DNA from: a virus
Direction: 5' to 3' (one strand)
Length of the DNA stretch: 64,000 nt
IMG/VR virus record: IMGVR_UViG_2917587430_000001
Coordinates: 25,228-89,227 of that record
A program made the position numbers and the translations under genes. Positions 9,261 through 55,275 of the stretch are shown here, one piece after another. How positions within the stretch are numbered: the first letter of the stretch is position 1; each line of letters starts with the position of its first letter. The notes beneath the pieces are model-generated. The model had not been told where the DNA came from, did not search any database, and was given only the letters and a program-made list of their open reading frames with translations.

Positions 9261-10404
9261 CAGACACCTCCAGAGACACACGAATTAGCTGCCCTGACTC
9301 ATAGCGCACTTCCCAATGTGGGTTTTGGTCTACTAGCCACTTCACCTGGTTAGGGTCAGCCGGGTAAGTCGGGCCGCCCTTGAGCCGACGCTCCAGTGCA
9401 GCAAACAAGTCCTCTAACCGATTCTCGTCATAAAGTCTGTTGAGGTTTTGACTTGCCTGCTGCCACTCCTCAAGCTGGCGGTCACGGAGTGCTGCATCAG
9501 GAGTTTTTCCAGGTTTAACTTTGGATGGGGACTTCTTTAGTCCTGATTCAATTTCATACTCTTCATAAAACCTAGAACCATCGTTTTGAATCTTGGTAAG
9601 AGCGTAGTCTTCTATCGAATCAATTTTTTTTCTTTGGGATTTGACTCTGCGGGTGCTGTAGTCCTCTGTACGTTTGAGCATGTAGTTCCAGAACTCTGGA
9701 AGATCTTTTTGTAGAGACTCAATGGTGGCCGCACTCCATTGATAAGAGGTGGTATCAACAGAACGGGAAATACTCTTTGTTCCTTCTGGCTCGGAATTTG
9801 AAGTTTTTTTAACACCTTTCTCTCTCTCAGTTTTTAAACCGATCTGATTTAAAGATCTAGAAAGATCTATAGGAGAGCCGGAGTCCTTGCTGCTACTGAC
9901 TTCTAGAGGTTGAGGTGTCAAATTTAGCTGACAAAGTGTCAAATCCTCTGTAGAAGAGTCGGCTTTTTTTGACACCGTGTCAGAAGAGTTTGACACTTGA
10001 TCATCATCAGGGGTGTCAAATTTTTTTGACACCTGTCGGGATTTTTTGACACTTAAGTTTCGTCCTCTCCATTTCTCAATCCTGAAACTCCAAAGTCCAG
10101 CAGACTCAATTTCTGCTTGGGCTGTGTTGATGCTTTGCCTGGTAACACCAAGCCTTAGAGCAAGCTCTCCTTGGTTTGGCATATCAATGTAGCGATCGCC
10201 AAATGGATATAGTGCATTCAGGTAATTGAGCAACCGGTATGAGGTTTTAGATAGGTTCGCGTCCGTTGCCTTAATCAATGCCTCACAAAGATTTTGGCAA
10301 TACAATTCAGCTTCAATTACTGCCTGTTCTTGCGCCTTGAAATCCTCTAAAACGGTTTCTTCCCACGCCTGTTTATCTGCCTCGGAGCTAAACTTTCTAG
10401 GCAT
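9244..10404 (-). CDS. Putative replication initiator (lambda O/replisome-organiser type, N-terminal wHTH)
   Basis: wHTH (LSKTSYRLLNYL...PNQGELALRLGVTRQSINTAQAEIESAGL), low-complexity linker carrying internal repeats, position downstream of the switch. Confidence 0.7.
   Translation of the reverse strand: MPRKFSSEADKQAWEETVLEDFKAQEQAVIEAELYCQNLCEALIKATDANLSKTSYRLLNYLNALYPFGDRYIDMPNQGELALRLGVTRQSINTAQAEIESAGLWSFRIEKWRGRNLSVKKSRQVSKKFDTPDDDQVSNSSDTVSKKADSSTEDLTLCQLNLTPQPLEVSSSKDSGSPIDLSRSLNQIGLKTEREKGVKKTSNSEPEGTKSISRSVDTTSYQWSAATIESLQKDLPEFWNYMLKRTEDYSTRRVKSQRKKIDSIEDYALTKIQNDGSRFYEEYEIESGLKKSPSKVKPGKTPDAALRDRQLEEWQQASQNLNRLYDENRLEDLFAALERRLKGGPTYPADPNQVKWLVDQNPHWEVRYESGQLIRVSLEVSDAGDF
9915..10052. 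repeat. Iteron-like TGACAC/GTGTCA cluster, candidate replication origin
   Basis: Eight exact copies (9915, 9936, 9970, 9977, 9991, 10013, 10027, 10047) plus one near-copy, flanked by A/T tracts, inside the rep gene. Confidence 0.7.
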
Positions 10405-10553
10405 CGCTGCTCACCTCCTCAAAGGTGACAGCAACATCTAGAACATCTTGTTCCGACAGGACTAGTTGATTGGTCAGCTTTAATTCATGTGTCATAATTG
10501 AAGCAAGTATTCGATAAACAACAAAACCCCGAACTGTTGACGCAGTTGCGGGG

Positions 10554-10817
10554 TTATTTTTTTGCCAAAGCCTTAGATTCAAGGACTTCCGCAATCAATT
10601 CCTTGAGTAAGGAATCTTTGTATTGTTGCCATTCACCTCTGGGGTTTAACCATTCGGCTTTGACAATTTGTGCGATCGCATATCCCGCACTCTGCAAGTC
10701 TTCCAAAGCATCTTCCAGGTATCTGTAATTGCCTCTAAGCTGCTGTGGATTGCTCCACAAAGCAGACCTTAAAAGCAACCGAAATTCAGTTGGTTGGATG
10801 TCTGGAAGCGTGTGCAT
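10554..10817 (-). CDS. Hypothetical protein
   Basis: ORF in the leftward operon. Confidence 0.5.
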   Translation of the reverse strand: MHTLPDIQPTEFRLLLRSALWSNPQQLRGNYRYLEDALEDLQSAGYAIAQIVKAEWLNPRGEWQQYKDSLLKELIAEVLESKALAKK

Positions 10818-10867
10818 AGTGCGGAAATGATGAGGTGAATAAAGTGAGCTTTATATCCACTTGCGAT

Positions 10868-10891
10868 CTCAACGAGATCCCCGCAAGGGGT
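10868..10891 (+). repeat. 24-nt SDR5-like element inserted in a HIP1 site
   Basis: GCGAT[CTCAACGAGATCCCCGCAAGGGGT]CGC; removing the insert restores GCGATCGC. Confidence 0.7.
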
Positions 10892-11081
10892 CGCTCGTTA
10901 ACCCAACCAAGTTTTGAAACTCGGCGCGTTGAGCTTCGGGAATTTCAGATAAGATTGCGACTGCCCGACCTTGAAGCCTGCGGCAGTAGGAAGGCATCGC
11001 AGGATTCAGGGCCGCAAGCTTGCAATAGAAGCGGTAGCTATCCGCGTGGGCAGATAGCCAAGAGTTGGGTTTGACAGGCAT
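10869..11081 (-). CDS. Small hypothetical protein
   Basis: Starts 3 bp after the upstream stop; the product is not recognised. Confidence 0.35.
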   Translation of the reverse strand: MPVKPNSWLSAHADSYRFYCKLAALNPAMPSYCRRLQGRAVAILSEIPEAQRAEFQNLVGLTSDPLRGSR

Positions 11082-11084
11082 TCG

Positions 11085-11426
11085 TCATCTCCCCAGCGCT
11101 TTGTAGACGACTTCAAACGCTGGTGGGGAAGATTCTGTCTGGTAGTAAAGTTTTAGGGATTGAAGCCACTCTAAGTCGAGCTTGGCGATCGCCGCTAACT
11201 TGGGCAGCAATGCCATAATTACAGCGTGATTTTCAGGAACGGGAAGCCGCTCATTCTCAAGCTTTGAGAGCCACACAAAATCAACTTGAAGTTGAGCTGC
11301 AAACTCTCTCTGAGAAAGCCTTAATTTCCTACGGGCATTTTTAAAAGTTCGGTTGATTGTAACGGCGTTTTGTGCCGAACAATCCTGACGAGCACCATCG
11401 TCAGGTGATACAAATAGAGTATCCAT
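11085..11426 (-). CDS. XRE-family HTH regulator
   Basis: FKNARRKLRLSQREFAAQLQVDFVWLSKLENE. Confidence 0.8.
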   Translation of the reverse strand: MDTLFVSPDDGARQDCSAQNAVTINRTFKNARRKLRLSQREFAAQLQVDFVWLSKLENERLPVPENHAVIMALLPKLAAIAKLDLEWLQSLKLYYQTESSPPAFEVVYKALGR

Positions 11427-11544
11427 CGCAATTTTTTCCTTTTGCGTGTGGGTTTGCACAATGTGCCTGTCAGCTTGGGGAAGTAGGCGGCACAGCATTT
11501 TGAAGAGGGGCGACGCATTGGTAGTGCGATCGCCTCTCTGCTAT

Positions 11545-11805
11545 TCAGGCATTGTCAGGCTGGGCTTTAAATTGCTTGAACCGTTCCAGCATTGCTTGAA
11601 GCTGTTCGGGGTCAAGGTTTTTTTCTGCCTCTGCCTGCATGAAGATAGCCAAGTCAATCCAATCCTGCATTGTTAATGCTTCGCCATACAAAGTCGGCGA
11701 AAGAGCGGATTGTGCTTTAGCCAGAATGTGTGTTTTATTCGAGACGTAAGGGCGTTTGGAAGTAGACACTTCTTGCCCAATGTTAAGAACTAGAGTTTGA
11801 GGCAT
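11545..11805 (-). CDS. Hypothetical protein, first gene of the leftward early operon
   Basis: Divergent from 11924. Confidence 0.45.
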   Translation of the reverse strand: MPQTLVLNIGQEVSTSKRPYVSNKTHILAKAQSALSPTLYGEALTMQDWIDLAIFMQAEAEKNLDPEQLQAMLERFKQFKAQPDNA

Positions 11806-11824
11806 GGTATTTTTTGCCGTATGA

Positions 11825-11882
11825 GTGTCTTAGACACCTTAGACACCTTAACAAAAAATAGACTATTTGGACACTTTAGACA
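11825..11882. promoter_or_regulatory. Operator-like repeats in the divergent promoter region
   Basis: Palindrome GTGTCTTAGACAC (11825-11837) plus further (T)TAGACAC/GGACAC half-sites. Confidence 0.55.
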
Positions 11883-11923
11883 AGAGTTGGGTAATCTTAA
11901 GTAAGATTCGGGAAATCAACGAA

Positions 11924-12286
11924 ATGAAGATTGTTGCGGTAGATGTGTCTGAGGCGCAAATCACTTACACCCCGGAAGGGATTCAACGCTTGGCAAAGGC
12001 AATTAAAGCCACGCTGAAGCTGCGCGGCTGGTCAGAACGAGAACTTCATCGCCAGATGCAAGCCGCAGGTTCTACGATCGCCCTTGGCACAGTTAACCGC
12101 TATGCCAAAGGTCGTCCAATCAACCCTAAAAACGAGGTGCTAAGGGAAATTGCTCCGTTTATTTATCGGGTTGTCAGCATTGACGGAGATAGCGTTGAAG
12201 TTGATCCATCTCGAACTTATGCAGATGACTGGATTGCGTTTGCCAAGATCGGCTCAACTGAGTTTTCTAACTCGAATTCCCATTGA
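11924..12286 (+). CDS. HTH repressor-like protein (CI-like position)
   Basis: LKLRGWSERELHRQMQ...ALGTVNRYAKG XRE-like HTH; divergent from the early operon. Confidence 0.65.
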   Translation: MKIVAVDVSEAQITYTPEGIQRLAKAIKATLKLRGWSERELHRQMQAAGSTIALGTVNRYAKGRPINPKNEVLREIAPFIYRVVSIDGDSVEVDPSRTYADDWIAFAKIGSTEFSNSNSH

Positions 12287-12514
12287 GTCAATAGCCAGGT
12301 GCGTATCTGGCACTTCAACATCTTCAATTAGCGCTGCTAACTCCAAAAAATCTTGGTCTACGAAATCTTTTCCCGCTTCAACTGCTTCGTTTGCCGTTTG
12401 GTAGGTCGCCCAGTCTGTATAGGACTGGAAATCATCGGGGGAGAAGCAATGTGCTTCGTATCCTTGGCAAATGGGTACAGCGAAGATTAACCAGCCTCGA
12501 TACAGTATGAACAC
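12254..12514 (-). CDS. Hypothetical protein, paralogue of the C-terminal part of 30524..30952
   Basis: Shared YRGW...C.SP...DW..Y.....A..AG...D pattern. Confidence 0.5.
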   Translation of the reverse strand: MFILYRGWLIFAVPICQGYEAHCFSPDDFQSYTDWATYQTANEAVEAGKDFVDQDFLELAALIEDVEVPDTHLAIDSMGIRVRKLS

Positions 12515-12592
12515 GCAAACCTGATGGAGATACCAGCGATCTTTTCTAGTTGTAGCTTGCAGCTTTAAGGTTTGACTCCGTGTTTTTGCGGG

Positions 12593-12781
12593 TTATTGGG
12601 TACGCGATAACCAACCTTCAAGAAGTTCCTGTACGACTTCTGAGATTTCCCTATCCTCTTGAAAGCAACGGATTTTCATGTCTGTATATACTTTTTTGGT
12701 GATATAAGCCGAAATTTGAACGTAATTAGGGTCTGACTTTTTTCCTCTAGGTCTACCCGGTTTGCGTCTCGGCTTATTCAT
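12593..12781 (-). CDS. Ribbon-helix-helix (ParG/CopG-like) protein
   Basis: GRPRGKKSDPNYVQISAYI...EISEVVQELLEGW, typical of cyanobacterial plasmid RHH proteins. Confidence 0.7.
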   Translation of the reverse strand: MNKPRRKPGRPRGKKSDPNYVQISAYITKKVYTDMKIRCFQEDREISEVVQELLEGWLSRTQ

Positions 12782-12944
12782 TCGGTCTACACGTTGAACT
12801 CTTCAGCATTTCAGCGTGTCAGACTGTCAGCCCATTGGCTTATCGCGATTCTGAATTTCTAGACTTTCGCATACGCGAAAAATAAAAGCCCCACCAGTGG
12901 CGGGGCTTAAGCATCTACTGCTGTTAGTGTTCCCTCGGTCAAGT

Positions 12945-14024
12945 TTAGGAAGCGATCGCCTCCTGAACTTTGACTTCCTCCTTGCCCTGCATCTCTTTTG
13001 CGGTGGAGATGAACTCAGCCCGCATTTTGGGTGTGGGCTTTGTGGAGTAGGTGTTTAAGATTTTCTCAAGGCAGTGTTCGGCGTAGGACAGTTCTGAATC
13101 TTCACTGGGTGGCTCTAGCGGAAGTTCAGAAATCTGCTCGACCATTTCGATTCGCTTGCCATCATCCCAGCCCTGAGCTTCCAGGAACTTACCAATGGTG
13201 CGGTTGCGGGAGTTGGCTTTCTGGAAGTTTTTGAAGCGGGGCACGCCGCGTCTGCGTCCTCGTTTTGGCGAGGCAGTTTCAGTTTCTTCGGCTTGCAGTT
13301 CGGGGGGTGTCTCAACTTTGCCATTCGTAGCGATTGGCGCAGCGGTCTCTCCTAAGCCCATCAGCATCGCCTTCTGTTGGGCAATGATTTGCTGAGTCTG
13401 AGTTTGAACCCAATAATCAACCCAGGCGGCGATCGCCTCTTCTGTGGCTTTGTAGCTGCCTGTGTCGGGGTCGAAAGCAACGAGCTGCCCCAAGGATTGA
13501 ATTTGAGCTGCAATTTGTTCAAGCGGCTGGTGGCTGCGCTCTGCGTAGGGGGCTAGAGTTTTGAGAGTCGGGATGGTTAACGGTATTGCTGATTGAACTG
13601 TCTTAGACGTATTAGACGGAGCAGGGGCGATCGCCTGTTGGTCCTGAAGAGTTGCTGTTGCCATATTTACAAGTTCCAAACTTTTGATTTCTAGTTTAAG
13701 TGGATCTTGCAAAACTAGTTCAGGCAGGCGGGTAGCAGCGCTATAAATCAGGTCGTTTTCGCAGTAAAAGGCAATCGAGCTAGCGGCGCAAATATACCAG
13801 GCTTGCAGGCGCAAATCGACCAGGTTAGCTTCAATTACTGCCCTGAATTCAGCGGAGAAAATAACAATCAAACCCCGGTCTAACCCACTGAGAAATAGAG
13901 AGCAACCTCCCAAAACTTTAGGAAACTCAGCCTGATATCGGGCAACTCGAAAGGTGTCGAGTTCTCCCAGGTCGAGCTGGTCTAGCTCTGGAGTAAAGTT
14001 TGGTTCGGGGGGTGTGGGTTCCAT
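12945..14024 (-). CDS. Hypothetical protein (359 aa)
   Basis: Long ORF with backbone-like composition. Confidence 0.6.
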   Translation of the reverse strand: MEPTPPEPNFTPELDQLDLGELDTFRVARYQAEFPKVLGGCSLFLSGLDRGLIVIFSAEFRAVIEANLVDLRLQAWYICAASSIAFYCENDLIYSAATRLPELVLQDPLKLEIKSLELVNMATATLQDQQAIAPAPSNTSKTVQSAIPLTIPTLKTLAPYAERSHQPLEQIAAQIQSLGQLVAFDPDTGSYKATEEAIAAWVDYWVQTQTQQIIAQQKAMLMGLGETAAPIATNGKVETPPELQAEETETASPKRGRRRGVPRFKNFQKANSRNRTIGKFLEAQGWDDGKRIEMVEQISELPLEPPSEDSELSYAEHCLEKILNTYSTKPTPKMRAEFISTAKEMQGKEEVKVQEAIAS

Positions 14025-15891: not shown

Positions 15892-16917
15892 CTAAATCAA
15901 TCCAGCTAGCAGGTCAGTCATCTCCCCTTGAGCATTCTTGCGGTTGTCATCATACTTAAGCAGCGTGTCTAGGTTGGAATGTCGGCTCAACTTTTGCACC
16001 GATCTAACATTGCCATCGCTCTGGTCTAGGGCTGCTGTGATACCGCTGTGGCGGCACCGGTGCGGCGAGAAAATCTTCTTAATGCCTGCCTTCTCTGCAA
16101 ACTCATACCTGACCAAGTAATACAATCCATCGCCAGTTAACCGATGTCCAAAGTGGGCACGGTCAACGGCAATAAATAGCGGTGAGCGAGGTTCATAGGG
16201 GCTGCGTTCCTGACGTGCTTCTAGCCAGTCGGCGATCGCCTCAGAACCTAAACTGCTAATTGAAATCTTCTCTTTCTGAGTTCCCTTGCCCTTACCCAGA
16301 ATGGATAGACTGCGGGTGTCTGGGTCAAAGTCGCCCGTGTCAGCAGCGCAGATTTCATTGCGGCGCAGAACGTTGTCCCACAGCAGCCGAAGCAATGCAT
16401 AATCTCGCTTGCCTTTGAGGGTAGAGCGATCAGGAATTTCAAACAGACGCTTGAATGCATCAGACTCAATGCCTGTAGTATCTCGATAAGACGTGACCTT
16501 TTCAGATTGAACTTCTTCTAAGCTCCAACTGCATTTTCCAATCTTCTGAGCATACTTGACCAACGCTTTAACCGCTGAGATACGAGTATTCACAGTCGAT
16601 TCAGCTTTACCTTGCTCCATCAGATGGGCTTTGTACCCTAGAACAAGTTGAATGGCAGTGAATCGCTCAAGCTTCAGAAATTGCTCAATCAGTTGCGGTG
16701 AGGGTTCTTGGTTAGCAATGTGTTGAAAGAACATCGCCAGCCCCTTAGCGTAGGTGCGGCGAGTGTTAGGGCTGCGTTTATCCCTTAGCAATTCCTCCAT
16801 AATGTCTCGGTCAACAATCTGGATGAAGGGACTTGAAGCAGCAGTTTTAACTAAATTCGTTGCCACGTCAGGAGGCTCCATAAGTACTGGTAGTACTAAA
16901 GTTCCACCATGCCGCAA
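15892..16917 (-). CDS. Tyrosine recombinase (XerC-like, cyanobacterial plasmid/phage type)
   Basis: Catalytic R (LRRNE), K (LGKG), HxxR (HRCRH), H (SRH) and Y (LKYD). Confidence 0.92.
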   Translation of the reverse strand: MRHGGTLVLPVLMEPPDVATNLVKTAASSPFIQIVDRDIMEELLRDKRSPNTRRTYAKGLAMFFQHIANQEPSPQLIEQFLKLERFTAIQLVLGYKAHLMEQGKAESTVNTRISAVKALVKYAQKIGKCSWSLEEVQSEKVTSYRDTTGIESDAFKRLFEIPDRSTLKGKRDYALLRLLWDNVLRRNEICAADTGDFDPDTRSLSILGKGKGTQKEKISISSLGSEAIADWLEARQERSPYEPRSPLFIAVDRAHFGHRLTGDGLYYLVRYEFAEKAGIKKIFSPHRCRHSGITAALDQSDGNVRSVQKLSRHSNLDTLLKYDDNRKNAQGEMTDLLAGLI

Positions 16918-17877: not shown

Positions 17878-17964
17878 GCCTAACGATCGCGTTCAGCGGC
17901 TGCAAATAATATCGAACTCAGCACCAAAAGCTGTCCTCATTCCGTTGCAACGCACTGGTTAGGT
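17878..17964 (-). other. attC site
   Basis: ACCTAAC-CAGTGCGTTGCAACGG...GCCGCTGAACGCGATC-GTTAGGC; the upstream gene's stop lies in the inverse core. Confidence 0.9.
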
Positions 17965-41757: not shown

Positions 41758-41842
41758 CCCCAACTCTACGTTGGAGCCGACGAACACCGTTGGCCCGACG
41801 ACGCGAATAAGCGGCATTCGCGGCTCAACTCCGCTGTTATGC
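41758..41842 (+). other. attC site
   Basis: CCCCAAC-TCTACGTTGGAGCCGAC...GCGGCTCAACTCCGCT-GTTATGC. Confidence 0.85.
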
Positions 41843-42124
41843 CGCTTATTCCTTGCTGGGGCACAGCTGAAAGATTTTCTGGAGGCGTTGAGGATTGGGG
41901 GACTATAGGGTTAGTGGTGCAAGAGCTAAAGATGGTTGTTCAGGGGCATCGGCCATTGAGTATTAGTGTTATCTATAATACAGTTTGAGCGATGAGTATT
42001 GAGGGGTTGATGCATTAGCCTGTGGTGCCCCTGTACTACACAGTTGTCGTTTCATAGCACAATGTTGCAAAATGAGAGAAATTCGGTTTGCCGAGTGATT
42101 TTTTACACCCTCACCCTTGCGCTT

Positions 42125-43135
42125 ATGTCAGAAGATTCCCAGCGTAACTCTGCTTTCAATGCTGCTGTGAGTTCAAAAGTTCATCACGCTCAACTAAACG
42201 ATACTGGCAAGTACACACCAGAAAAGTTAGGGCATCTGTACAGAGGTGGTATACGTACTGGTGCAGGGCGAACCGAAGCGCAAGCTCAACAAATGTTAGA
42301 CAAAATCCCACCTTCTCAGAGGGCTGGAGTTGATGGTCAATCCGCTGCTGCTAAAGTCAAAGAATATTTAGCTGATAAGGATGCTAGTCATATAAAACCA
42401 CATAGTAAAGGTGGTTCAAGTCATCCAGATAATATCAAATGGGAAGGTAAAACTGCTAATCGTGCTCGTGGCGATCAACACATGACCAGCCAAGAGCAAA
42501 GACAACTAAATGTTAAGGCACAAGCTGATAACATACGTGGAGCATTGAAAGCTGGTGTAGAGGCTGCGTCCAAAGGAGCAGTAATTGGTGCAGTAACAAC
42601 GGCTCCTTTCTCTATGCTTAGAAATGCATTGCGAGTTGTACGAGGTGAAATGTCAGCTCAAGATGCTGCTCTAGAAACTGTAAAAGAAACTGCTGTTGGT
42701 GGGGGAGTTGGAGCTACAACAGCATTTACGGTTACGGCGGTAGCATCTGCTTGTCCTCCTATTGCTGTTGCATTAACAGCTATGTCACCAGTTTTACTTG
42801 CTGCTGGTGGTGTTGGAATGGTATGTGAGTTTTTCAAGATTCTTGGTGACCATAAGCAGCAGGTGAAAGAGTATTATTCATCATTGACTCAGAGAGAACT
42901 GCAATATCTCCAGGATGTTGAGAGTGAACTTCTGTACGAACACTCTAAGAATTCAGAGTTTCTGAATAAGTCCGCAGAATTAAACGCTGAGATTACACAC
43001 AGACCTATCGAGTCTGGTGTAGAAGGTGCATTAAAGCGATATCTTGAGTCTGCTGCAATTGCTAAAGCTTTGGGAGCTACACCAATCGGTAATAAGCAGT
43101 TGCCTGTTTCAAAAAAAACTTTGCCCTCAGCTTAA
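42125..43135 (+). CDS. Gene cassette: HNH-like nuclease domain plus Gly/Ala-rich membrane hairpin
   Basis: DASHIKPHSKGGSSHPDNIKWEGKTANRARG; hydrophobic GAVIGAV...AGGVGMV. Confidence 0.6.
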   Translation: MSEDSQRNSAFNAAVSSKVHHAQLNDTGKYTPEKLGHLYRGGIRTGAGRTEAQAQQMLDKIPPSQRAGVDGQSAAAKVKEYLADKDASHIKPHSKGGSSHPDNIKWEGKTANRARGDQHMTSQEQRQLNVKAQADNIRGALKAGVEAASKGAVIGAVTTAPFSMLRNALRVVRGEMSAQDAALETVKETAVGGGVGATTAFTVTAVASACPPIAVALTAMSPVLLAAGGVGMVCEFFKILGDHKQQVKEYYSSLTQRELQYLQDVESELLYEHSKNSEFLNKSAELNAEITHRPIESGVEGALKRYLESAAIAKALGATPIGNKQLPVSKKTLPSA

Positions 43136-43159
43136 TAATTTTAGGATTGGTAAATACTT

Positions 43160-43651
43160 ATGTTTTTTCTGCTTCCTTTAGTTGGTGCGGCAGTTGGTGC
43201 AGCAGTTGGTGCTCTTGTTACTCATGCTAGCGGCGAGAAAGATAGACAGGCGGCAGAGCATCATAGAAAAGTTGCTAATGACTTGACCAACAAATTCTCA
43301 AATTTAGAGAAAAGATACAGCGAATATGCCGATAAGAGTAAGAGTCAAATTGATGACTTGACCAGGCAACACGCTTTAGATGAAGCAGAGAAAGATCTTC
43401 TGCGTTTAGCCATCAGGTTGCAGCAGAGCTTGTATATGCTTATGTGGGATATAGATAATAAGCCTACATATGATGCTTTGATAGATTTTGAACAAGCTGT
43501 TGAGGCAACTAACAGAGTTTTATCCGAGTTAAGCGAGGAGAAAATTCAAATCCCAAGTAAGTACTTTTCTCGCAACCTGACACGGGTTAAGAGGCGTGAA
43601 AAGCTCGCTGAAACGAGGCAGAAGAAAATAGAAAGTAGCAGCGCGGCATAG
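43160..43651 (+). CDS. Gene cassette: membrane-anchored coiled-coil partner protein
   Basis: MFFLLPLVGAAVGAAVGALV; the stop lies in attC R''. Confidence 0.7.
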   Translation: MFFLLPLVGAAVGAAVGALVTHASGEKDRQAAEHHRKVANDLTNKFSNLEKRYSEYADKSKSQIDDLTRQHALDEAEKDLLRLAIRLQQSLYMLMWDIDNKPTYDALIDFEQAVEATNRVLSELSEEKIQIPSKYFSRNLTRVKRREKLAETRQKKIESSSAA

Positions 43652-43732
43652 CAATTCGGGTGCAGCGGATTGACCGAAGCCGCTTGGGTTAGATGCAAAG
43701 ACCTCGGCAACCGCTGACCCGACTCGTTAGGT
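43646..43732 (+). other. attC site
   Basis: GCATAGC-AATTCGGGTGCAGCGGATTG...CAACCGCTGACCCGACTC-GTTAGGT. Confidence 0.85.
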
Positions 43733-43790
43733 GGAATTTGAGACATCAATTAGAACATTAAATACCTCTAAAGTTGAGGCTAGTACAAAA

Positions 43791-45635
43791 ATGTTAAAAG
43801 ACAAAGCGGTGATCATTATCGCAGTATCAAAATATGCTGGTACTTATGACAATCTTCCAGGGGCAATAACAAGTGCTAGGAGACTGCGTGAATGGGCTGA
43901 ACAGTCTGACGAAGACTGTAAATATAAAGTTCTTTATCTAGCTGATGACGTCTTTGAGAAGATTGACGTTCAACTCGTGCGCGAACAAGTTAGCCAATTT
44001 GTTAACAGTAACTTCATAGATCGACTCATCGTCTATTTCGCTGGACATGGCATTGTTCGCTCAGCTGGTGACCAGTTTTGGCTTCTTACCAATGCGGCGC
44101 AGGATCTACGAGAAGGAATTGATGTAGAAGCCTTTAGGCGGGGTTTACTAAAATGCAATATTGGTAATGCTGATTTTGCAGGTCAATTGTGCATTATTGG
44201 TGATGCCTGTCGAAATACTGGGCGAGATGCTATCGAATTTTACGGTGATCCAATTCTGACTTCGACAGCAAAGAGGAATAGTCGTATTCAGCTTGATAAG
44301 TTTCTGTCCACAGGGCTTGGCAATTACTCATTCCAAATCAATCAAATTGGTAGTCAAAGTGCGTACTGTCTGTTTTCGGAGGTGATGCTGAGTGCCTTGC
44401 GAGGCGAAGTTAAGGAAGCAATTGACACGGAAGACCATCGATTCAAACCAGTTATCACAAATCATAAACTAGCTGAATATTTAGAGAAAGAGGTCAGAAG
44501 TCGTGCTGCTGCAATTGGAGAGGAGATGGAGCCTGATCTGCTTACTGGAATCCATCCTCCCCATAACTTCTACAAAAGATTAAAGGAACCGATTTCTGAT
44601 GTAATAGCTAGTTCGCAAGATTCGCAACTGGCGGCAGCAATCCAAATGGCAATACATGATCCCCATCCAGAAAGCAGTAATGAGAAACTTACAGCAGCTC
44701 AAGAAGGTCGTAAACAAACTCTTTTGGGATTGAAAGACCGTATTAAATTGAACTATTCCCGACTATCAATCAGAGTTAGACGTCGTTTCGATCCTAATAA
44801 TCCTAATTTTTTAACTGTTAGTGATTTTCGCCCAAACTTTATAGCTGTACCTCGTAGTGCAACGGTTGAAGTGGCACATCGGGAAGAAACACTCTATGAG
44901 ATACTAGCGTTTAACTGTTACGATTCGCCTATTTTAATCCACCAAGATGGACAATGGATAATTATTCCTAATTACCTCAATGTTGTTGCTGTCATATCTC
45001 GCAATTTACCTGGCGACATCTTATTCTTTAAGACTGGACATTTTACTAAACGAGATGAAGTGTGGGATACATATTTAAGTGATTTTTCAAATCTTGCTGG
45101 CAGTGTTCCATTACGCGCCGCAGAGGCTAAAAAATTTGCAGATAGGGTTAGAGTGGGAAAAGAGGAATATCCTCATCAAGCAGTGACAGCAGGATATCTT
45201 TATGAATTTTCCAACGACTACGATAATATTGCTAGAACTGCACATTATATGGCTAGAAACACAGATTCGGTGCCATTCGATCTAGCACTACTATGTGCAG
45301 ACAAAATATGGTGGAGTAAAGAAAATGGCAGGTTGGTCGCATTTGCAGATCTGCCAGCCGTTGAACCCTCACAACCGAGTGAGCAAAAGGATAATCGCCC
45401 CTATTATGCTAGACGTGAATTTGCGGCACACAAGAATGTCCAACTTTGGGGAATTACACCAATCTTTCGTCAGGGTTGGAGTTTTATGCAGACTGAACTA
45501 TACCTTGATATTCCAGACAAGATCAGGTTAATTAGCGAAAATATGATTGGGAGATCGGCAGCAAGCTTAACAGATGAGGGACTTAGAATGTTTCTTAAAG
45601 CCTTTGACTATCGAGTTATTGAGATTGACACCTAA
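43791..45635 (+). CDS. Gene cassette: caspase-family (C14) peptidase with uncharacterised C-terminal domain
   Basis: VIIIAVSKY...LPGA...VYFAGHG...IIGDACR (His-Cys dyad). Confidence 0.85.
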   Translation: MLKDKAVIIIAVSKYAGTYDNLPGAITSARRLREWAEQSDEDCKYKVLYLADDVFEKIDVQLVREQVSQFVNSNFIDRLIVYFAGHGIVRSAGDQFWLLTNAAQDLREGIDVEAFRRGLLKCNIGNADFAGQLCIIGDACRNTGRDAIEFYGDPILTSTAKRNSRIQLDKFLSTGLGNYSFQINQIGSQSAYCLFSEVMLSALRGEVKEAIDTEDHRFKPVITNHKLAEYLEKEVRSRAAAIGEEMEPDLLTGIHPPHNFYKRLKEPISDVIASSQDSQLAAAIQMAIHDPHPESSNEKLTAAQEGRKQTLLGLKDRIKLNYSRLSIRVRRRFDPNNPNFLTVSDFRPNFIAVPRSATVEVAHREETLYEILAFNCYDSPILIHQDGQWIIIPNYLNVVAVISRNLPGDILFFKTGHFTKRDEVWDTYLSDFSNLAGSVPLRAAEAKKFADRVRVGKEEYPHQAVTAGYLYEFSNDYDNIARTAHYMARNTDSVPFDLALLCADKIWWSKENGRLVAFADLPAVEPSQPSEQKDNRPYYARREFAAHKNVQLWGITPIFRQGWSFMQTELYLDIPDKIRLISENMIGRSAASLTDEGLRMFLKAFDYRVIEIDT

Positions 45636-45691
45636 CAACTAATACATCAACGAAACATTCTACCTTTCAATACTATTTGGAGCATTTGTTA

Positions 45692-46597
45692 ATGACAACA
45701 GTTCTTTTAATTCACGGCATTAATAATCAGGGTAATTCAAAGGATAACATTGAAAAAACGTGGAGTTATGCCCTTAGAAGCAGTGCTGCTACCGCAGGAC
45801 TAACGATACCTGATGATGTGAAATTTATTGCAGCGTTCTATGGCGACGTACTCTTTAACGAAACAGAATCCTGGAACAAGAACAAACCTACTTCAAGTCC
45901 TATGAGTGTCGAATCTCCGGACGAAGATTATGCGGATGATGAAGTTGCGGCTTTATATCTTGAATTCCAGCAAAAATATGGTATCGGCGATGAGCAAGTT
46001 TCTCGGGAACTTGAGGCTGAAGATAATCTTCAAGCTCAAAAGCGCATGGCTAAAGGAATTCATAAGAGGTGGTTAAAGGCGATAGCGAAAGCTTTGGAAA
46101 CGGTACTTCCTTCAAAGGGTAAACGAGTAGCAGCAGCTTTTATAAGTCAAGCTGCCGCATATCTTCATAAGCCCGGTTTAAAGGAAAAAGTTGACGATCT
46201 CGTTATGACCCAAGTGATAGACGGACTACCAAAAGATGAAAAGGTTGTTATTATTAGTCATTCCCTTGGCACTATTGTAGCTTATGACTTAATGCGCCGT
46301 CTTAGGCATCAAGTAAAGGTTGGGTTGCTGCTAACTGCCGGTTCACCTCTTGGGATTGAGATAGTCAAACGTAGGCTGGGTACACCGCTTATCTGCCTTC
46401 CAAATGTAGATAAATGGGTAAATATATCAGATGATGAAGACTTTGTTGCCTTCCAAACAAAGCTAACTAGTACGACTTTTGGATGTGATAAGATTGTAAA
46501 TATTGATCAGTTAGATAATGGCGATGAAGATGCACACGATATTCTGAAATATCTTGCACATGATATTGTCGCAAAAGAAATTGTGTTGAATCTCTAA
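45692..46597 (+). CDS. Alpha/beta-hydrolase (lipase-like)
   Basis: LIHGI...ISHSLG nucleophile elbow, LTAGSPL, W.N..D.EDFV, terminal AH...YL. Confidence 0.85.
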   Translation: MTTVLLIHGINNQGNSKDNIEKTWSYALRSSAATAGLTIPDDVKFIAAFYGDVLFNETESWNKNKPTSSPMSVESPDEDYADDEVAALYLEFQQKYGIGDEQVSRELEAEDNLQAQKRMAKGIHKRWLKAIAKALETVLPSKGKRVAAAFISQAAAYLHKPGLKEKVDDLVMTQVIDGLPKDEKVVIISHSLGTIVAYDLMRRLRHQVKVGLLLTAGSPLGIEIVKRRLGTPLICLPNVDKWVNISDDEDFVAFQTKLTSTTFGCDKIVNIDQLDNGDEDAHDILKYLAHDIVAKEIVLNL

Positions 46598-46657
46598 CTG
46601 GACAAACAAATTAGTCGATTGTGAACATTTAGTTTGACATTTCCACTACACTATTCC

Positions 46658-46743
46658 ACCTAACCCTTACATGCACCGGACGGACTGGACACCTCTGGCT
46701 TCGTTTAAGTGACATCTGACGCCGTTGATGTCCGCCGTTAGCA
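46658..46743 (+). other. attC site
   Basis: ACCTAAC-CCTTACATGCACCGGACG...GACGCCGTTGATGTCCGCC-GTTAGCA. Confidence 0.85.
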
Positions 46744-48433: not shown

Positions 48434-48931
48434 GTGTCAAAAGGCATCCCTGCAAAGCTTAAAAAGGTTTCAGTTAAACTCCCATTTGGTATTGGTGGAG
48501 CAGAATGGGAAGCCGACTCGACAGAACGCAAAGCGGCTTGGGCGATTTATGTTGAGTTAGTTACTCGCATCGCTGTTCAAGACCTTGATAAAGACCAAGG
48601 ACTTTTGCGAGAGTTGCTAAACTCGCTACATAGTTTGTTTGGTATTACACGTCAAATCCTGCGGGAAGCTGGTCCAGATGTTGGTGCATCATACGAATCA
48701 GTTGGGGGTACAGCAATTACTGTCCTTAACAGAGGACTACGCCCTTTTTTGTCTACATGGCATCCTGCACTTCAGGCATGGGAGGCGCAACGCCCTGTAA
48801 ATCTTAGTCCAAAAGAGCATGAGAAGAATTGGATTCATGAACCTAAATTACGTAGTGAATTAAAATCCCTTAATCTAGATTTAGAGCAATATGCTAATGC
48901 GTTAGCAGAGATAGCTGGAGTTAAGTGTTGA
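48434..48931 (+). CDS. Gene cassette: conserved-looking helical hypothetical protein
   Basis: ERKAAWAIYVELVTRIA...LNRGLRPFLSTWHP; co-cassette with SIR2-TIR. Confidence 0.7.
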   Translation: MSKGIPAKLKKVSVKLPFGIGGAEWEADSTERKAAWAIYVELVTRIAVQDLDKDQGLLRELLNSLHSLFGITRQILREAGPDVGASYESVGGTAITVLNRGLRPFLSTWHPALQAWEAQRPVNLSPKEHEKNWIHEPKLRSELKSLNLDLEQYANALAEIAGVKC

Positions 48932-49018
48932 TAGGCTAGTAGGCGCTTGACAACCTCTCAGAATAGTTAAAGATGGTATTAATCACATTATTAGAATTAG
49001 TAATTTATCTTTAGCAGA

Positions 49019-50266
49019 ATGAATGAGCTAATCATACAAAGACTAAAAAGAAAGTCACGCGGAAATCAAGTGGCAATCGCAGTCAGCAGTTCGCTGTCAG
49101 AAGAAAAATTTTCTATTCCAAGTCTAGCGAAAAAAATAATTAGCCACTGCAATTTAGAATTTGAAGTTCAGGAATTGACACAATATTTCAAAGTATGGAA
49201 CGCCCTGATTGAAGAAGCTGAGAAAAAAGTAAGTAGAGATTATTTGGTTAAATTGGTGAGAGATTTCGTATCCACCGCAGAGCCTCTTCCGGTGCATTAT
49301 AAAATTGCATCACTACCTATTTCAAACTTTATAGATGCTACTTTCGATCGATCACTGTATAAAGCTCTTATTCAATTGAATAAAAATCCAATCATTCATG
49401 ATTGGAATCATCAATCTATTGGGGCATGGAAGCAAAGTAATCCAAATCAACCCAGTATATTCTTCTTGTTCTGCAATTTAAGTCCACCTCATCCTTGGCA
49501 TGGAGTCTATGAACCCATCAGTAGAGCTGGCAGTAGGGGTGATCAAATTCAGATAATGAATATTGCAGAGATGCTCAATGATAAAGACTTGATTCTCGCA
49601 GGATTTACCTCTCACGAGGCAGAATTTACCCTACACTTATCTTCATTAATCAGTTCTTGCAATAAAGTAGTTAATTGTCTTGATTATATTGATGATTCTA
49701 CTTACTGGTGTCAAAGAGGGGTTTGCATCCTTAATAAGGAAGCTGAGCAAGTAATCGATTACTTACTTCCCTATGAGATGGGTGAGTACACGTTTTGGGA
49801 TATGCCTATACCGAGGAGAGAAATAATGGATGTAGTGCGAGACAAGCAGTATGACTGCTTTATCAGTCATTTCAGTGGCGATAAACCTTTTGCAAAGAGA
49901 TTATCTCAAGATCTTGAGATGCGTGGTCTTTATGTCTGGGTTGACGAGAACGAAATTGATATTGGGGATTCTCTTTCAGATAAAATTCAAGATGGTTTAG
50001 GAAGCTCATATTCGTTTGCAATTATCCTATCCAATGAATCCATTTCTAGACCTTGGGTCAAGGAAGAATTAAGAGCAGCATATGCTTTAAGATTAGCGGG
50101 AGAATCTAAGATACTGCCAATTTTGTACAAGGAATGTGATATTCCTATACTTCTGAAAGACTACAGATATGCAGATTTTAGAAGTGAAGGTCGGTATCAT
50201 GAGGAGATTCCTACTTTGGAACGCTCTATTAGAAATGCTATGCGCCAAGCGAGGGGCAAGAAATAG
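49019..50266 (+). CDS. Gene cassette: SIR2-like + TIR domain protein
   Basis: LPISNFIDATFDRSLYKAL (SIR2-like); YDCFISH..DK..A.RL..DL..RGL.VW.D...WVKEEL (TIR with catalytic Glu). Confidence 0.8.
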   Translation: MNELIIQRLKRKSRGNQVAIAVSSSLSEEKFSIPSLAKKIISHCNLEFEVQELTQYFKVWNALIEEAEKKVSRDYLVKLVRDFVSTAEPLPVHYKIASLPISNFIDATFDRSLYKALIQLNKNPIIHDWNHQSIGAWKQSNPNQPSIFFLFCNLSPPHPWHGVYEPISRAGSRGDQIQIMNIAEMLNDKDLILAGFTSHEAEFTLHLSSLISSCNKVVNCLDYIDDSTYWCQRGVCILNKEAEQVIDYLLPYEMGEYTFWDMPIPRREIMDVVRDKQYDCFISHFSGDKPFAKRLSQDLEMRGLYVWVDENEIDIGDSLSDKIQDGLGSSYSFAIILSNESISRPWVKEELRAAYALRLAGESKILPILYKECDIPILLKDYRYADFRSEGRYHEEIPTLERSIRNAMRQARGKK

Positions 50267-50300
50267 TTGACGCAGTTCTATAGTTTCATAAGCTCAGGCG

Positions 50301-50386
50301 TTCTAACAATTTAAATGCAGGCGGACGTTGAAAGCCACTCTGCTTAGTTCGAGGTTACTTGCCGTCACTGATTCAAACCGTTAGCC
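50301..50386 (+). other. attC site
   Basis: TTCTAAC-AATTTAAATGCAGGCGGACG...CCGTCACTGATTCAAACC-GTTAGCC. Confidence 0.8.
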
Positions 50387-55085: not shown

Positions 55086-55275
55086 ATGGCACAACATCCT
55101 TCCCCTTGCCTATTAGGTCAGGTACAGCAATCTATCCAACTCAAGCATTTCAGCTTAAAGACTGAGAAATCCTATATTGACTACATCCGCGATTTCATCC
55201 TGTTTCATTACAGCGGCACCTTGAAGGAATGAGGACAGATGGAACTCAAGCCTACTTGGAACTAGCTAGAAGGTT
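55086..55275 (+). pseudogene. intI: Integron integrase 5' remnant, frameshifted and truncated
   Basis: LLGQVQQSIQLKHFSLKTEKSYIDYIRDFILFH, then in a shifted frame RHLEGMRTDGTQAYLELA, matching the IntI N-terminal SAM-like domain. Confidence 0.8.

What the first reader, a model, noticed from the sequence alone, without database searches (positions are those of the whole stretch)
43791..46743. Caspase plus lipase-like hydrolase fused into one cassette
Seen: the caspase stop lies in an orphan inverse core ACCTAAC (45630) with the rest of attC missing. The hydrolase follows, and a full attC with the same ACCTAAC closes the unit. Known: bacterial caspase-like proteases can activate adjacent death effectors. 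Inference: a protease-activated membrane-damaging anti-phage pair whose linkage was fixed by attC loss.
Basis: partly seen in the sequence, partly recalled or inferred. Interest (0 to 1): 0.65.

Follow-up and report, generated by a model that had tools for sequence, protein, structure and literature searches.

The report
Caspase-activated hydrolase pair in integron cassette
Two tightly linked genes, a caspase-like protease and a dormant lipase-like enzyme that it most likely switches on by cutting, travel as a single integron gene cassette on a phage-like cyanobacterial element; this kind of suicide or defence module was first shown experimentally in 2025, so it is a new variant, not a new kind.

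Summary
The genes are real: a 614-aa caspase-fold protease (His86/Cys140) and a 301-aa alpha/beta-hydrolase (Ser191, Asp247/250, His282).

**Cassette.** The attC at 46658-46743 is real. Homology to five other loci starts exactly at GTTAGGT (43726) and ends at CCG|TTA (46737). So 43727-46737 is one 3.0-kb integron cassette.

**"Orphan inverse core".** This is not supported.
- ACCTAAC at the caspase stop is only a Thr codon, TAA and a C.
- It is absent from homologues.
- The 56-nt spacer has no structure and carries the hydrolase ribosome-binding site.

**Linkage.** The pair is adjacent, protease first, in every locus checked, about 20 distinct ones. These include alphaproteobacterial loci with no sign of a cassette. 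Linkage therefore does not come from attC loss here.

**Closest known.** This is the LcCaspase/LcHydrolase zymogen module (Evans et al. 2025, PMC12642450), which is cut at R73|G and R117|G. In this clade the homologous columns are conserved as PM71|S and RM119|A. They lie in the lowest-confidence loops and predict 7.8/5.5/20.1-kDa fragments.

**Not shown.** A membrane target and phage defence are unproven.

This scan has reported the same kind of module before on other DNA. Verdict: new variant of a known kind.

The parts
43646..43732 (+). attC of the upstream cassette. Its R' core GTTAGGT (43726-43732) holds the G|TT junction where the caspase cassette begins.
   Evidence: It folds as 6 bp, a bulge, 6 bp, a bulge, then 3 bp: -18.3 kcal/mol, z -2.87, 0 of 200 shuffles as good. 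Homology of six loci starts exactly here.
43727..46737 (+). The whole integron-type gene cassette, 3,011 bp: leader, caspase gene, spacer, hydrolase gene, 3' UTR and attC.
   Evidence: Both boundaries fall at G|TT in the window and in L002, L022 and L025. The upstream boundary is also shared by L001 and L004. The flanks differ in every locus.
43727..43790 (+). Conserved 5' leader of the cassette.
   Evidence: It is 96.9% identical to L022, more than the caspase CDS at 86.2%.
43791..45635 (+). Caspase-like protease gene (P0001, 614 aa). Caspase domain is about aa 1-265. His86 is at 44046-44048 and Cys140 at 44208-44210. The flexible linker (aa 266-335) carries RM286|A at 44646-44648. The C-terminal domain (aa 336-614) has unknown function.
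   Evidence: The C-terminal domain lies at the C-terminal end of ~600-700-aa proteins; four of six sampled distant ones gave a Peptidase_C14 match, two below Pfam's cut-off.
45630..45636 (+). ACCTAAC overlapping the caspase stop codon. This is a chance 7-mer, not an attC relic.
45636..45691 (+). Intergenic spacer with the ribosome-binding site GGAG at 45679-45682.
   Evidence: Its 3' half is conserved in L001-L004. It has no secondary structure.
45692..46597 (+). Alpha/beta-hydrolase gene (P0002, 301 aa), a predicted zymogen. The oxyanion His8-Gly9, Ser191 (46262-46264), Asp247/Asp250 and His282 are intact. Predicted cleavage sites are Met71|Ser72 (45902-45907) and Met119|Ala120 (46046-46051).
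46658..46743 (+). attC of this cassette. R'' is ACCTAAC (46658-46664), followed by an unpaired spacer, an L box with a one-base bulge, and R' GTTAGCA (46737-46743). The crossover lies after G46737.
   Evidence: R'' is the perfect complement of G46737 joined to TTAGGT at 43727-43732, as in the circular form of the cassette. The copies in L022 and L025 fold as 4 bp, a bulge, 6 bp, a bulge, then 3 bp. There are two compensatory pairs, and 85% of cells pair against about 27% when slid by 1-2 columns. The window's own copy has one mismatch in the L box and does not fold better than shuffles.

Best explanation
A two-gene protease-effector module is carried as one integron gene cassette.

Gene 1 makes a caspase-fold cysteine protease with a family-specific C-terminal domain, probably the regulatory or sensing part. 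Gene 2 makes an alpha/beta-hydrolase that is held inactive by an internal segment of about 48 residues.

On a trigger, presumably phage infection or another stress, the protease cuts the hydrolase at two exposed loops. In this clade the cuts most likely fall after Met71 and Met119. Removing the plug lets the 7.8-kDa N-terminal and 20.1-kDa C-terminal pieces form an active esterase- or lipase-like enzyme that kills or arrests the cell.

Shown here:
- the fold and intact catalytic residues of both proteins;
- strict gene linkage across phyla;
- homology of the hydrolase to a clade with R|G sites at the published positions;
- conservation of the two motifs in the lowest-confidence loops;
- the cassette boundaries and the attC.

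Inferred: the cleavage itself, Met as P1, the trigger, the substrate and any defence phenotype.

The pair was captured as a ready-made unit by an integron. It now sits in an integrase-less cassette array on a phage-like cyanobacterial element, so any movement would need an IntI supplied in trans.
For: **Linkage**
- The hydrolase lies directly downstream of the caspase gene in L001-L009 and L011-L013.
- The same holds in L022-L034 and in the distant members L039 and L040.
- Distant cyanobacterial relatives of the hydrolase sit next to a Peptidase_C14 gene (L047, L048) or are fused to a subtilase (L049).

**Catalysis**
- His86 and Cys140 are invariant in 54 sequences.
- His8, Gly9, Ser191, Asp247, Asp250 and His282 are invariant in 63 sequences.

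**Folds**
- Caspase domain: MALT1 at Z 23.1.
- Hydrolase: pLDDT 88.5. The best match is the Nir2 DDHD domain at Z 15.5, followed by thioesterases and lipases.

**Known mechanism of the family**
- PMC12642450 reports cleavage at R73|G and R117|G, fragments of 8.1, 4.7 and 19.8 kDa, and toxicity of the N plus C fragments.

**Homology to that clade**
- P0325 has R74|G and R117|G. P0314 has R71|G and R112|G. P0312 has Met in the same columns.

**Predicted sites in the window's protein**
- Met71 is shared by 70 of 122 sequences, with Ser, Gly or Ala next.
- Met119 is shared by 52 of 122, with Ala or Gly next in 104 of 122.
- The predicted fragments are 7.8, 5.5 and 20.1 kDa.
- The sites fall in the lowest-pLDDT blocks, residues 61-80 and 111-120.
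- An R/Q-M|A motif also sits in the disordered linker of the protease, with Met in 32 of 54 and Ala in 33 of 54 sequences.

**Cassette**.
Against: - No experiment exists on this clade.
- The literal R|G motif of the characterised family is absent.
- The Asp two residues before the catalytic Cys (Asp138) is conserved in both the Met-type and the Arg-type proteases. In metacaspases and paracaspases, from general knowledge, this residue goes with basic P1 residues. Met as P1 is therefore unconfirmed, and a one-residue alignment shift cannot be fully excluded.
- I could not compare directly with the LcHydrolase sequence, which was not available.
- PADLOC has no model for the hydrolase and only a weak 'caspase' hit, E 6.5e-4.
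- Several loci lie in housekeeping neighbourhoods, not defence islands.
- The window's attC copy has a mismatch in its L box and folds no better than shuffles. No intact IntI is in the 113.6-kb record. Present-day mobility is therefore uncertain.
Confidence: 0.68

Rival explanations
1. Two originally separate single-gene cassettes, caspase and hydrolase, were welded together when the attC between them was lost. ACCTAAC at the caspase stop is the leftover inverse core.
For: ACCTAAC does overlap the stop codon. Several other cassettes in this window end their gene inside the inverse core, for example at 17958 on the minus strand.
Against: - The 7-mer is not conserved in the homologous cassettes.
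- The spacer is unstructured and carries the ribosome-binding site.
- The count of ACCTAAC outside attC sites equals the chance expectation.
- The pair is adjacent in the same order in every one of about 20 distinct loci. This holds down to about 25-30% identity and in alphaproteobacteria. Cury et al. found neither integrons nor attC clusters in the 243 alphaproteobacterial genomes they surveyed (PMC4889954).
- Neither gene was seen alone.
Confidence: 0.04
2. The protease is the killing effector, by broad proteolysis as in type IV Thoeris or effector-less caspases. The hydrolase is then a regulator, sensor or signal-degrading enzyme and not the protease's substrate.
For: - Effector-less caspase-like proteases can defend on their own (PMC12642450; type IV Thoeris).
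- The hydrolase is the more conserved partner: 93% against 79% amino-acid identity to L022, and 48% against 32% to L008.
Against: - The homologous Lysobacter hydrolase is the substrate, and its fragments are toxic.
- The two motifs are conserved at the homologous loops.
- The same hydrolase family pairs with different protease classes: C14, C14-VMAP and a fused S8 subtilase. That fits a shared effector better than a dedicated regulator.
Confidence: 0.13
3. The pair is not an antiviral system. It would be an addiction or stabilisation module, or a stress-triggered cell-death module, that helps keep the cassette array or the phage-like element in the population.
For: - Many loci lie in ordinary chromosomal contexts.
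- Only 4 of 401 sampled cyanobacterial genomes hold a full-length relative, a patchy distribution typical of selfish or accessory genes.
- Evans et al. themselves raise stress responses beyond phage defence.
Against: - The window's array is rich in defence-type cassettes: Mrr nuclease, methylase and TIR.
- Other loci neighbour a trypsin-nSTAND1 gene, CHAT-MoxR genes and HerA-like genes.
- There is no obvious labile antitoxin.
Confidence: 0.12

Closest known systems
LcCaspase/LcHydrolase protease-effector module of Lysobacter capsici AZ78 (Evans et al., bioRxiv 2025; PMC12642450)
   Same: - A caspase-like cysteine protease gene is paired with an alpha/beta-hydrolase of about 300 aa.
- The hydrolase has two conserved sites near residues 73 and 117 that bracket a small middle fragment.
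- Fragment sizes nearly coincide: 7.8, 5.5 and 20.1 kDa here against 8.1, 4.7 and 19.8 kDa.
- The fold is lipase- or esterase-like and the substrate is unknown.
- Relatives of the window's hydrolase carry the published R|G motif.
   Different: - The predicted P1 residue is Met (or Gln, Leu) followed by Ser, Ala or Gly, not Arg followed by Gly.
- The protease carries a different, unnamed C-terminal domain instead of WD40 or STAND sensors.
- This copy is packaged as an integron cassette on a phage-like cyanobacterial element.
- There is no direct comparison with the Lc sequences and no experiment.
Integron gene cassettes and clusters of attC sites lacking an integrase (CALIN; Cury et al. 2016, PMC4889954); defence cassettes of integrons (bioRxiv 10.1101/2024.07.02.601719; PMC12614218)
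   Same: - The cassette is bounded by G|TT.
- The 3' attC has complementary R boxes, an unpaired spacer and a bulged L box.
- The same cassette is found behind different neighbours, including attI-like ends.
- Neighbouring cassettes look defence-related.
   Different: - It holds two genes in 3.0 kb.
- No intact IntI is in the record, only fragments of about 50 aa.
- The host is a cyanobacterial phage-like element.
- The window's attC copy is slightly degenerate.
Type IV Thoeris (TIR protein plus caspase-like effector; Rousset et al. 2025, as cited)
   Same: A caspase-like protease acts in a death or defence setting. A TIR gene lies 2.4 kb downstream in the window (49019-50266).
   Different: The TIR gene is in another cassette, two attC sites away. 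It is not found next to the pair in any other locus examined. The conserved partner here is the hydrolase.

Membership tests
Caspase + alpha/beta-hydrolase zymogen module (LcCaspase/LcHydrolase type) | A caspase-fold protease with an intact His/Cys dyad is encoded next to the hydrolase. | tested here: met
   Peptidase_C14. MALT1 at Z 23.1. His86 and Cys140 are invariant. The genes are adjacent in all loci examined.
Caspase + alpha/beta-hydrolase zymogen module (LcCaspase/LcHydrolase type) | An alpha/beta-hydrolase of about 300 aa with an intact catalytic triad. | tested here: met
   Model pLDDT 88.5. Z 12-15.5 to alpha/beta-hydrolases. Ser191, Asp247/250, His282 and His8-Gly9 are invariant.
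Caspase + alpha/beta-hydrolase zymogen module (LcCaspase/LcHydrolase type) | The hydrolase is homologous to the characterised family. | tested here: inconclusive
   A profile of the window's family finds a clade with R|G at about 71-74 and 112-117, at E about 1e-55 to 1e-59 (P0312, P0314, P0325, P0329). This fits the paper's description. The LcHydrolase sequence itself was not available for comparison.
Caspase + alpha/beta-hydrolase zymogen module (LcCaspase/LcHydrolase type) | Two conserved Arg|Gly cleavage motifs near residues 73 and 117. | tested here: not met
   The homologous columns hold Met71-Ser72 and Met119-Ala120, and no Arg-Gly. The positions and the small P1' residue are kept; the P1 residue differs.
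Caspase + alpha/beta-hydrolase zymogen module (LcCaspase/LcHydrolase type) | The protease cleaves the hydrolase, and the cleaved fragments are toxic. | not testable with these tools
   This needs biochemistry and expression assays.
Integron gene cassette | The unit is bounded by G|TT crossover points, and the same unit occurs with different neighbours. | tested here: met
   Homology starts at GTTAGGT in the window and in L001, L002, L004, L022 and L025. It ends at CCG|TTA in the window and in L002, L022 and L025. The flanks are unrelated.
Integron gene cassette | A 3' attC with complementary R''/R', an unpaired central spacer, and an L box and stem with extrahelical bases. | tested here: met
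   R'' ACCTAAC complements G plus TTAGGT of the cassette's own start. L022 and L025 fold as 4 bp, a bulge, 6 bp, a bulge, then 3 bp. There are two compensatory pairs, and 85% of cells pair against about 27% when slid by 1-2 columns. The window's copy carries one mismatch.
Integron gene cassette | An integron integrase (IntI) within reach. | tested here: not met
   TIGR02249 finds nothing over its cut-off in the 113.6-kb record. Three matches are fragments of about 50 aa matching the start of IntI, one of them at window 55113-55250; a fourth weak match (model positions 250-297) lies in the 341-aa phage-type integrase ORF at window 15892-16917. The array is therefore CALIN-like.
Type IV Thoeris | A TIR-domain gene is conserved in the same operon as the caspase-like effector. 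| tested here: not met
   The TIR gene at 49019-50266 is in a separate cassette. It is absent beside the pair in the other loci.

The most novel reading that the evidence does not exclude
The P1 residue of the licensing sites has diversified between clades of one protease-hydrolase family. It is Arg in the characterised clade, Met/Gln/Leu in this clade, and Trp/Phe before Gly in an actinobacterial clade. The caspase-fold protease here would then cut after methionine. It may also process or auto-inhibit itself through the RM|A motif in its own linker. Such switches in specificity would insulate co-resident modules from cross-activation, or help them escape phage-encoded decoys.
Probability: 0.3. 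Interest if true: 0.6.

Novelty: new variant of a known kind. Interest (0 to 1): 0.42.

Why it matters
- **A test case for specificity.** The 2025 protease-licensed hydrolase mechanism extends to a sizeable sister clade: 204 cluster representatives at 50% identity share the protease's C-terminal domain. The clade's cleavage motifs differ, which gives a direct way to ask how specificity of clan CD proteases evolves.
- **Capture of multi-gene modules.** A complete two-gene death or defence module can be captured and moved as one integron cassette, next to other defence-like cassettes, on a phage-like cyanobacterial element. This bears on how integrons and phages trade immune genes.
- **Limits.** This is not a new principle. 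The scan has reported modules of the same kind several times on other DNA.

Tried and rejected
**Searching for attC sites**
- An energy-based scan of all AAC...GTT pairs did not pick out attC sites. GC-rich coding regions scored best.

**Complex prediction**

**Defence and family libraries**
- PADLOC has nothing for the hydrolase and only a weak 'caspase' hit for the protease.
- NCBIfam gives only a sub-threshold caspase_w_EACC1 hit, 31 bits against a cut-off of 140.

**C-terminal domain of the protease (aa 336-614)**
- It has no Pfam match in any of 54 members and no PDB sequence match.
- The only leads are unnamed Atlas clusters and a weak structural lead to Peptidase_C14 + Y4kD_C proteins, TM 0.52.
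Its fold remains untested.

**S1 pocket comparison**
- Comparing the Met-type and Arg-type proteases was inconclusive. GHG and D-A-C-R are the same in both.

**Other**
- The LcHydrolase sequence could not be obtained, as no supplement is held.
- The viral-contig scan found only two distant relatives, at 28-32% identity. The pair is not typical phage cargo.
- A link to the neighbouring TIR gene (type IV Thoeris) was considered. I rejected it because that neighbourhood is not conserved.
Full report
**What is there**

The window is cyanobacterial-type DNA, with HIP1 (GCGATCGC) throughout. It comes from a 113.6-kb record that IMG/VR classes as viral. Two co-directional ORFs fill the flagged region.

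- ORF 43791-45635 gives P0001 (614 aa).
  - It has a weak but above-threshold Peptidase_C14 match, 23.5 bits.
  - Its model has pLDDT 83.7. Residues 1-265 superpose on MALT1 at Z 23.1 (rmsd 2.8 over 219 residues), and on caspases and metacaspases.
  - His86 (in FAGHG) and Cys140 (in GDACR) are invariant in 54 homologues.
- ORF 45692-46597 gives P0002 (301 aa).
  - Its model has pLDDT 88.5 and is an alpha/beta-hydrolase.
  - The best solved match is the Nir2 DDHD domain (Z 15.5, 210 residues aligned), followed by thioesterases, carboxylesterases and lipases.
  - His8-Gly9, Ser191 (in HSLG), Asp247, Asp250 and His282 are invariant in 63 homologues.

**The cassette claim**

- *Boundaries.* I aligned the flanks of the window with related loci from genomes and metagenomes.
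  - Similarity begins at exactly GTTAGGT (window 43726) in the window and in L001, L002, L004, L022 and L025.
  - It ends at CCG|TTA (window 46737) in the window and in L002, L022 and L025.
  - Beyond these points every locus has different sequence.
- *Circular form.* Joining G46737 to TTAGGT (43727-43732), as in a circular cassette, gives the exact complement of the inverse core ACCTAAC at 46658.
- *Structure.* The copies in L022 and L025 fold with 11 unpaired bases (R'' plus spacer), then 4 bp, a one-base bulge, 6 bp, a one-base bulge and 3 bp.
  - The attC sites at 43646 (z -2.87) and 38583 (z -4.22) have the same layout.
  - Across five copies, 85% of cells pair against about 27% when the partner is slid by 1-2 columns. 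Two pairs changed on both sides: ACAT/ATGT in the window against GCGT/ACGC.
  - With five sequences this statistic alone is weak. The boundaries are the stronger evidence.
- *State of the window's copy.* It has one L-box mismatch and does not fold better than shuffles.
- *Position in other arrays.* In L002 and L025 the cassette follows a sequence resembling the ends of the window's repeated attI-like platform: GTCTAAT..A|GTTAG.
- *Integrase.* No integron integrase passes its cut-off in the record. Three matches are fragments of about 50 aa matching the start of IntI, and a fourth weak match lies in the phage-type integrase ORF at window 15892-16917.

I conclude that 43727-46737 is a 3,011-bp two-gene cassette in an integrase-less array.

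**The "orphan inverse core"**

This part of the finding does not hold.

- ACCTAAC at 45630 is the Thr614 codon ACC, the stop TAA and a C.
- The word occurs nine times in the window against 4.45 expected. Four copies are R boxes of attC sites, and the remaining five are what chance gives.
- Homologous cassettes do not keep it. L004 reads ACCTAAT and the others end differently.
- The 56-nt spacer folds to 0 kcal/mol, and all 200 shuffles do at least as well.
- The conserved 3' half of the spacer holds GGAG, 9 nt before the hydrolase ATG.

**Linkage is older than the cassette**

- The hydrolase gene follows the caspase gene directly, with a 0-100 nt gap and often a 4-nt overlap, in every locus examined.
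  - In L001-L009 and L011-L013: Microcystis, Dapis, Methylobacter, Rhizobiaceae, Paracoccaceae, Mesorhizobium, Sphingomonas and others.
  - In L022-L028.
  - In Sinorhizobium, Asticcacaulis, Salinisphaera and a marine contig.
  - In two very distant members, L039 and L040.
- Many of these are ordinary chromosomal neighbourhoods.
- Cury et al. found neither integrons nor attC clusters in the 243 alphaproteobacterial genomes they surveyed (PMC4889954).
- Neither gene was seen alone.
- The C-terminal domain of the protease (aa 336-614) has 204 cluster representatives. It lies at the C-terminal end of ~600-700-aa proteins; four of six sampled distant ones gave a Peptidase_C14 match, two below Pfam's cut-off.
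- In an even sample of 401 cyanobacterial genomes, only four hold a full-length relative of the hydrolase. It is a rare accessory module.
- Three of those relatives tie the hydrolase family to proteases in other ways. Two have a Peptidase_C14 neighbour, one of which carries VMAP domains, and one is a hydrolase fused to a subtilase.

**How it most likely works**

Evans et al. (PMC12642450) showed the mechanism for a Lysobacter pair.

- The caspase-like protease cuts the neighbouring alpha/beta-hydrolase after Arg73 and Arg117 (R|G).
- This gives fragments of 8.1, 4.7 and 19.8 kDa.
- The N and C fragments together kill E. coli.
- The substrate is unknown.

A profile of the window's hydrolase family reaches a clade with exactly such motifs. 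P0325 has R74|G and R117|G, and P0314 has R71|G and R112|G. P0312 has Met in the same columns.

In the window's clade the homologous columns are conserved as follows.

| Site | Window motif | Conservation of P1 | Following residue |
|---|---|---|---|
| 1 | P-M71\|S | Met in 70 of 122 | Ser, Gly or Ala |
| 2 | R-M119\|A | Met in 52 of 122; Gln, Leu and others in the rest | Ala or Gly in 104 of 122 |

- The sites lie in the least confident parts of the model, residues 61-80 and 111-120.
- They predict fragments of 7.8, 5.5 and 20.1 kDa.
- The same R/Q-M|A motif sits in the disordered linker of the protease at Met286, with Met in 32 of 54 sequences. This hints at self-processing or a pseudosubstrate.
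- An actinobacterial clade has Trp or Phe before Gly at site 2.

All cleavage statements for this clade are inferences. Asp138, two residues before Cys140, is kept in both Met-type and Arg-type proteases. The P1 assignment therefore needs an experiment.

**Context**

Neighbouring cassettes look defence-related:
- an Mrr-type nuclease;
- an HNH-like membrane protein with a glycine-zipper protein;
- a TIR protein.

This fits reports that integron cassettes store anti-phage systems. The TIR gene is not conserved beside the pair elsewhere, so a Thoeris-type link is rejected.

**Verdict**

- The protease-activated-effector reading is supported by homology to a characterised family.
- The attC-loss story is not supported.
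- "Membrane-damaging" and "anti-phage" remain untested.
- The scan has reported the same kind of module on other DNA, but no look-alike of this sequence.

Noticed in passing
window 41758-43732: The upstream cassette (41843-43726) is also a two-gene unit. It holds an HNH-like protein with a membrane region (P0003; weak PADLOC PDC-M09B hit) and a YtxH/glycine-zipper protein (P0004). Its attC inverse core GCATAGC matches the complement of its own start, GTTATGC, at 6 of 7 positions.
   Followed up: partly
window 48434-50386: A cassette two attC sites downstream holds a 415-aa TIR-domain protein (TIR_2 at 1e-24; PADLOC PDC-S66 at 5e-25) behind a 165-aa ORF. It is not linked to the caspase pair in other loci.
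   Followed up: partly
G000:C1 15969-16091, 80340-80477 (window 55113-55250), 92967-93110: Three fragments of about 50 aa match only the N-terminal start of the integron integrase model (E 8.5e-9 to 4.7e-6). Two contain stop codons. No intact IntI is in the 113.6-kb record.
   Followed up: partly
L001 (Microcystis aeruginosa W13-11) about 9810-9850 and 12950-12990: In Microcystis the cassette has lost its attC: homology ends at a HIP1 site just after the hydrolase stop. The pair is flanked on both sides by a direct repeat, GGCTAATCTGGCTAACA.GCTTTTGGG..TGATATA.
   Followed up: no
L004 (contig labelled Acidovorax caeni MAG) 9941-12969: A contig binned as a betaproteobacterium carries the cyanobacterial-type cassette, leader included, at 76% (caspase) and 81% (hydrolase) amino-acid identity. 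Its attC is decayed: R'' is GCCAAAC and there is no GTT core. This is either recent transfer or a binning error.
   Followed up: no
L049 1480-3690; L048 2-3837; L047 1501-2892: Distant cyanobacterial relatives of the hydrolase pair with other proteases. One is fused to a Peptidase_S8 subtilase (736 aa). One lies between an Rce1-like gene and a Peptidase_C14-VMAP protein. One is followed by a Peptidase_C14 gene.
   Followed up: partly
window attC sites 38583, 43646, 46658 (+) and 17310, 17878 (read on the minus strand): In these cyanobacterial attC sites both one-base bulges lie on the arm next to the gene's stop codon, read on the coding strand, and the first is a G. As I recall it, the first extra base in that arm of classical attC sites is a C when read on this strand. 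I did not check this against the literature.
   Followed up: no
window 43791-46597 compared with L022, L025, L002, L005-L008: The hydrolase is consistently more conserved than the protease: 93 against 79%, 86 against 71%, 53 against 39% and 48 against 32% amino-acid identity. The 64-nt cassette leader is 96.9% identical to that of L022.
   Followed up: partly
L008 12858-17957: In a Paracoccaceae chromosome the pair is followed directly by a 1,699-aa protein with Trypsin_2 and nSTAND1 domains, a defence-type STAND NTPase.
   Followed up: no
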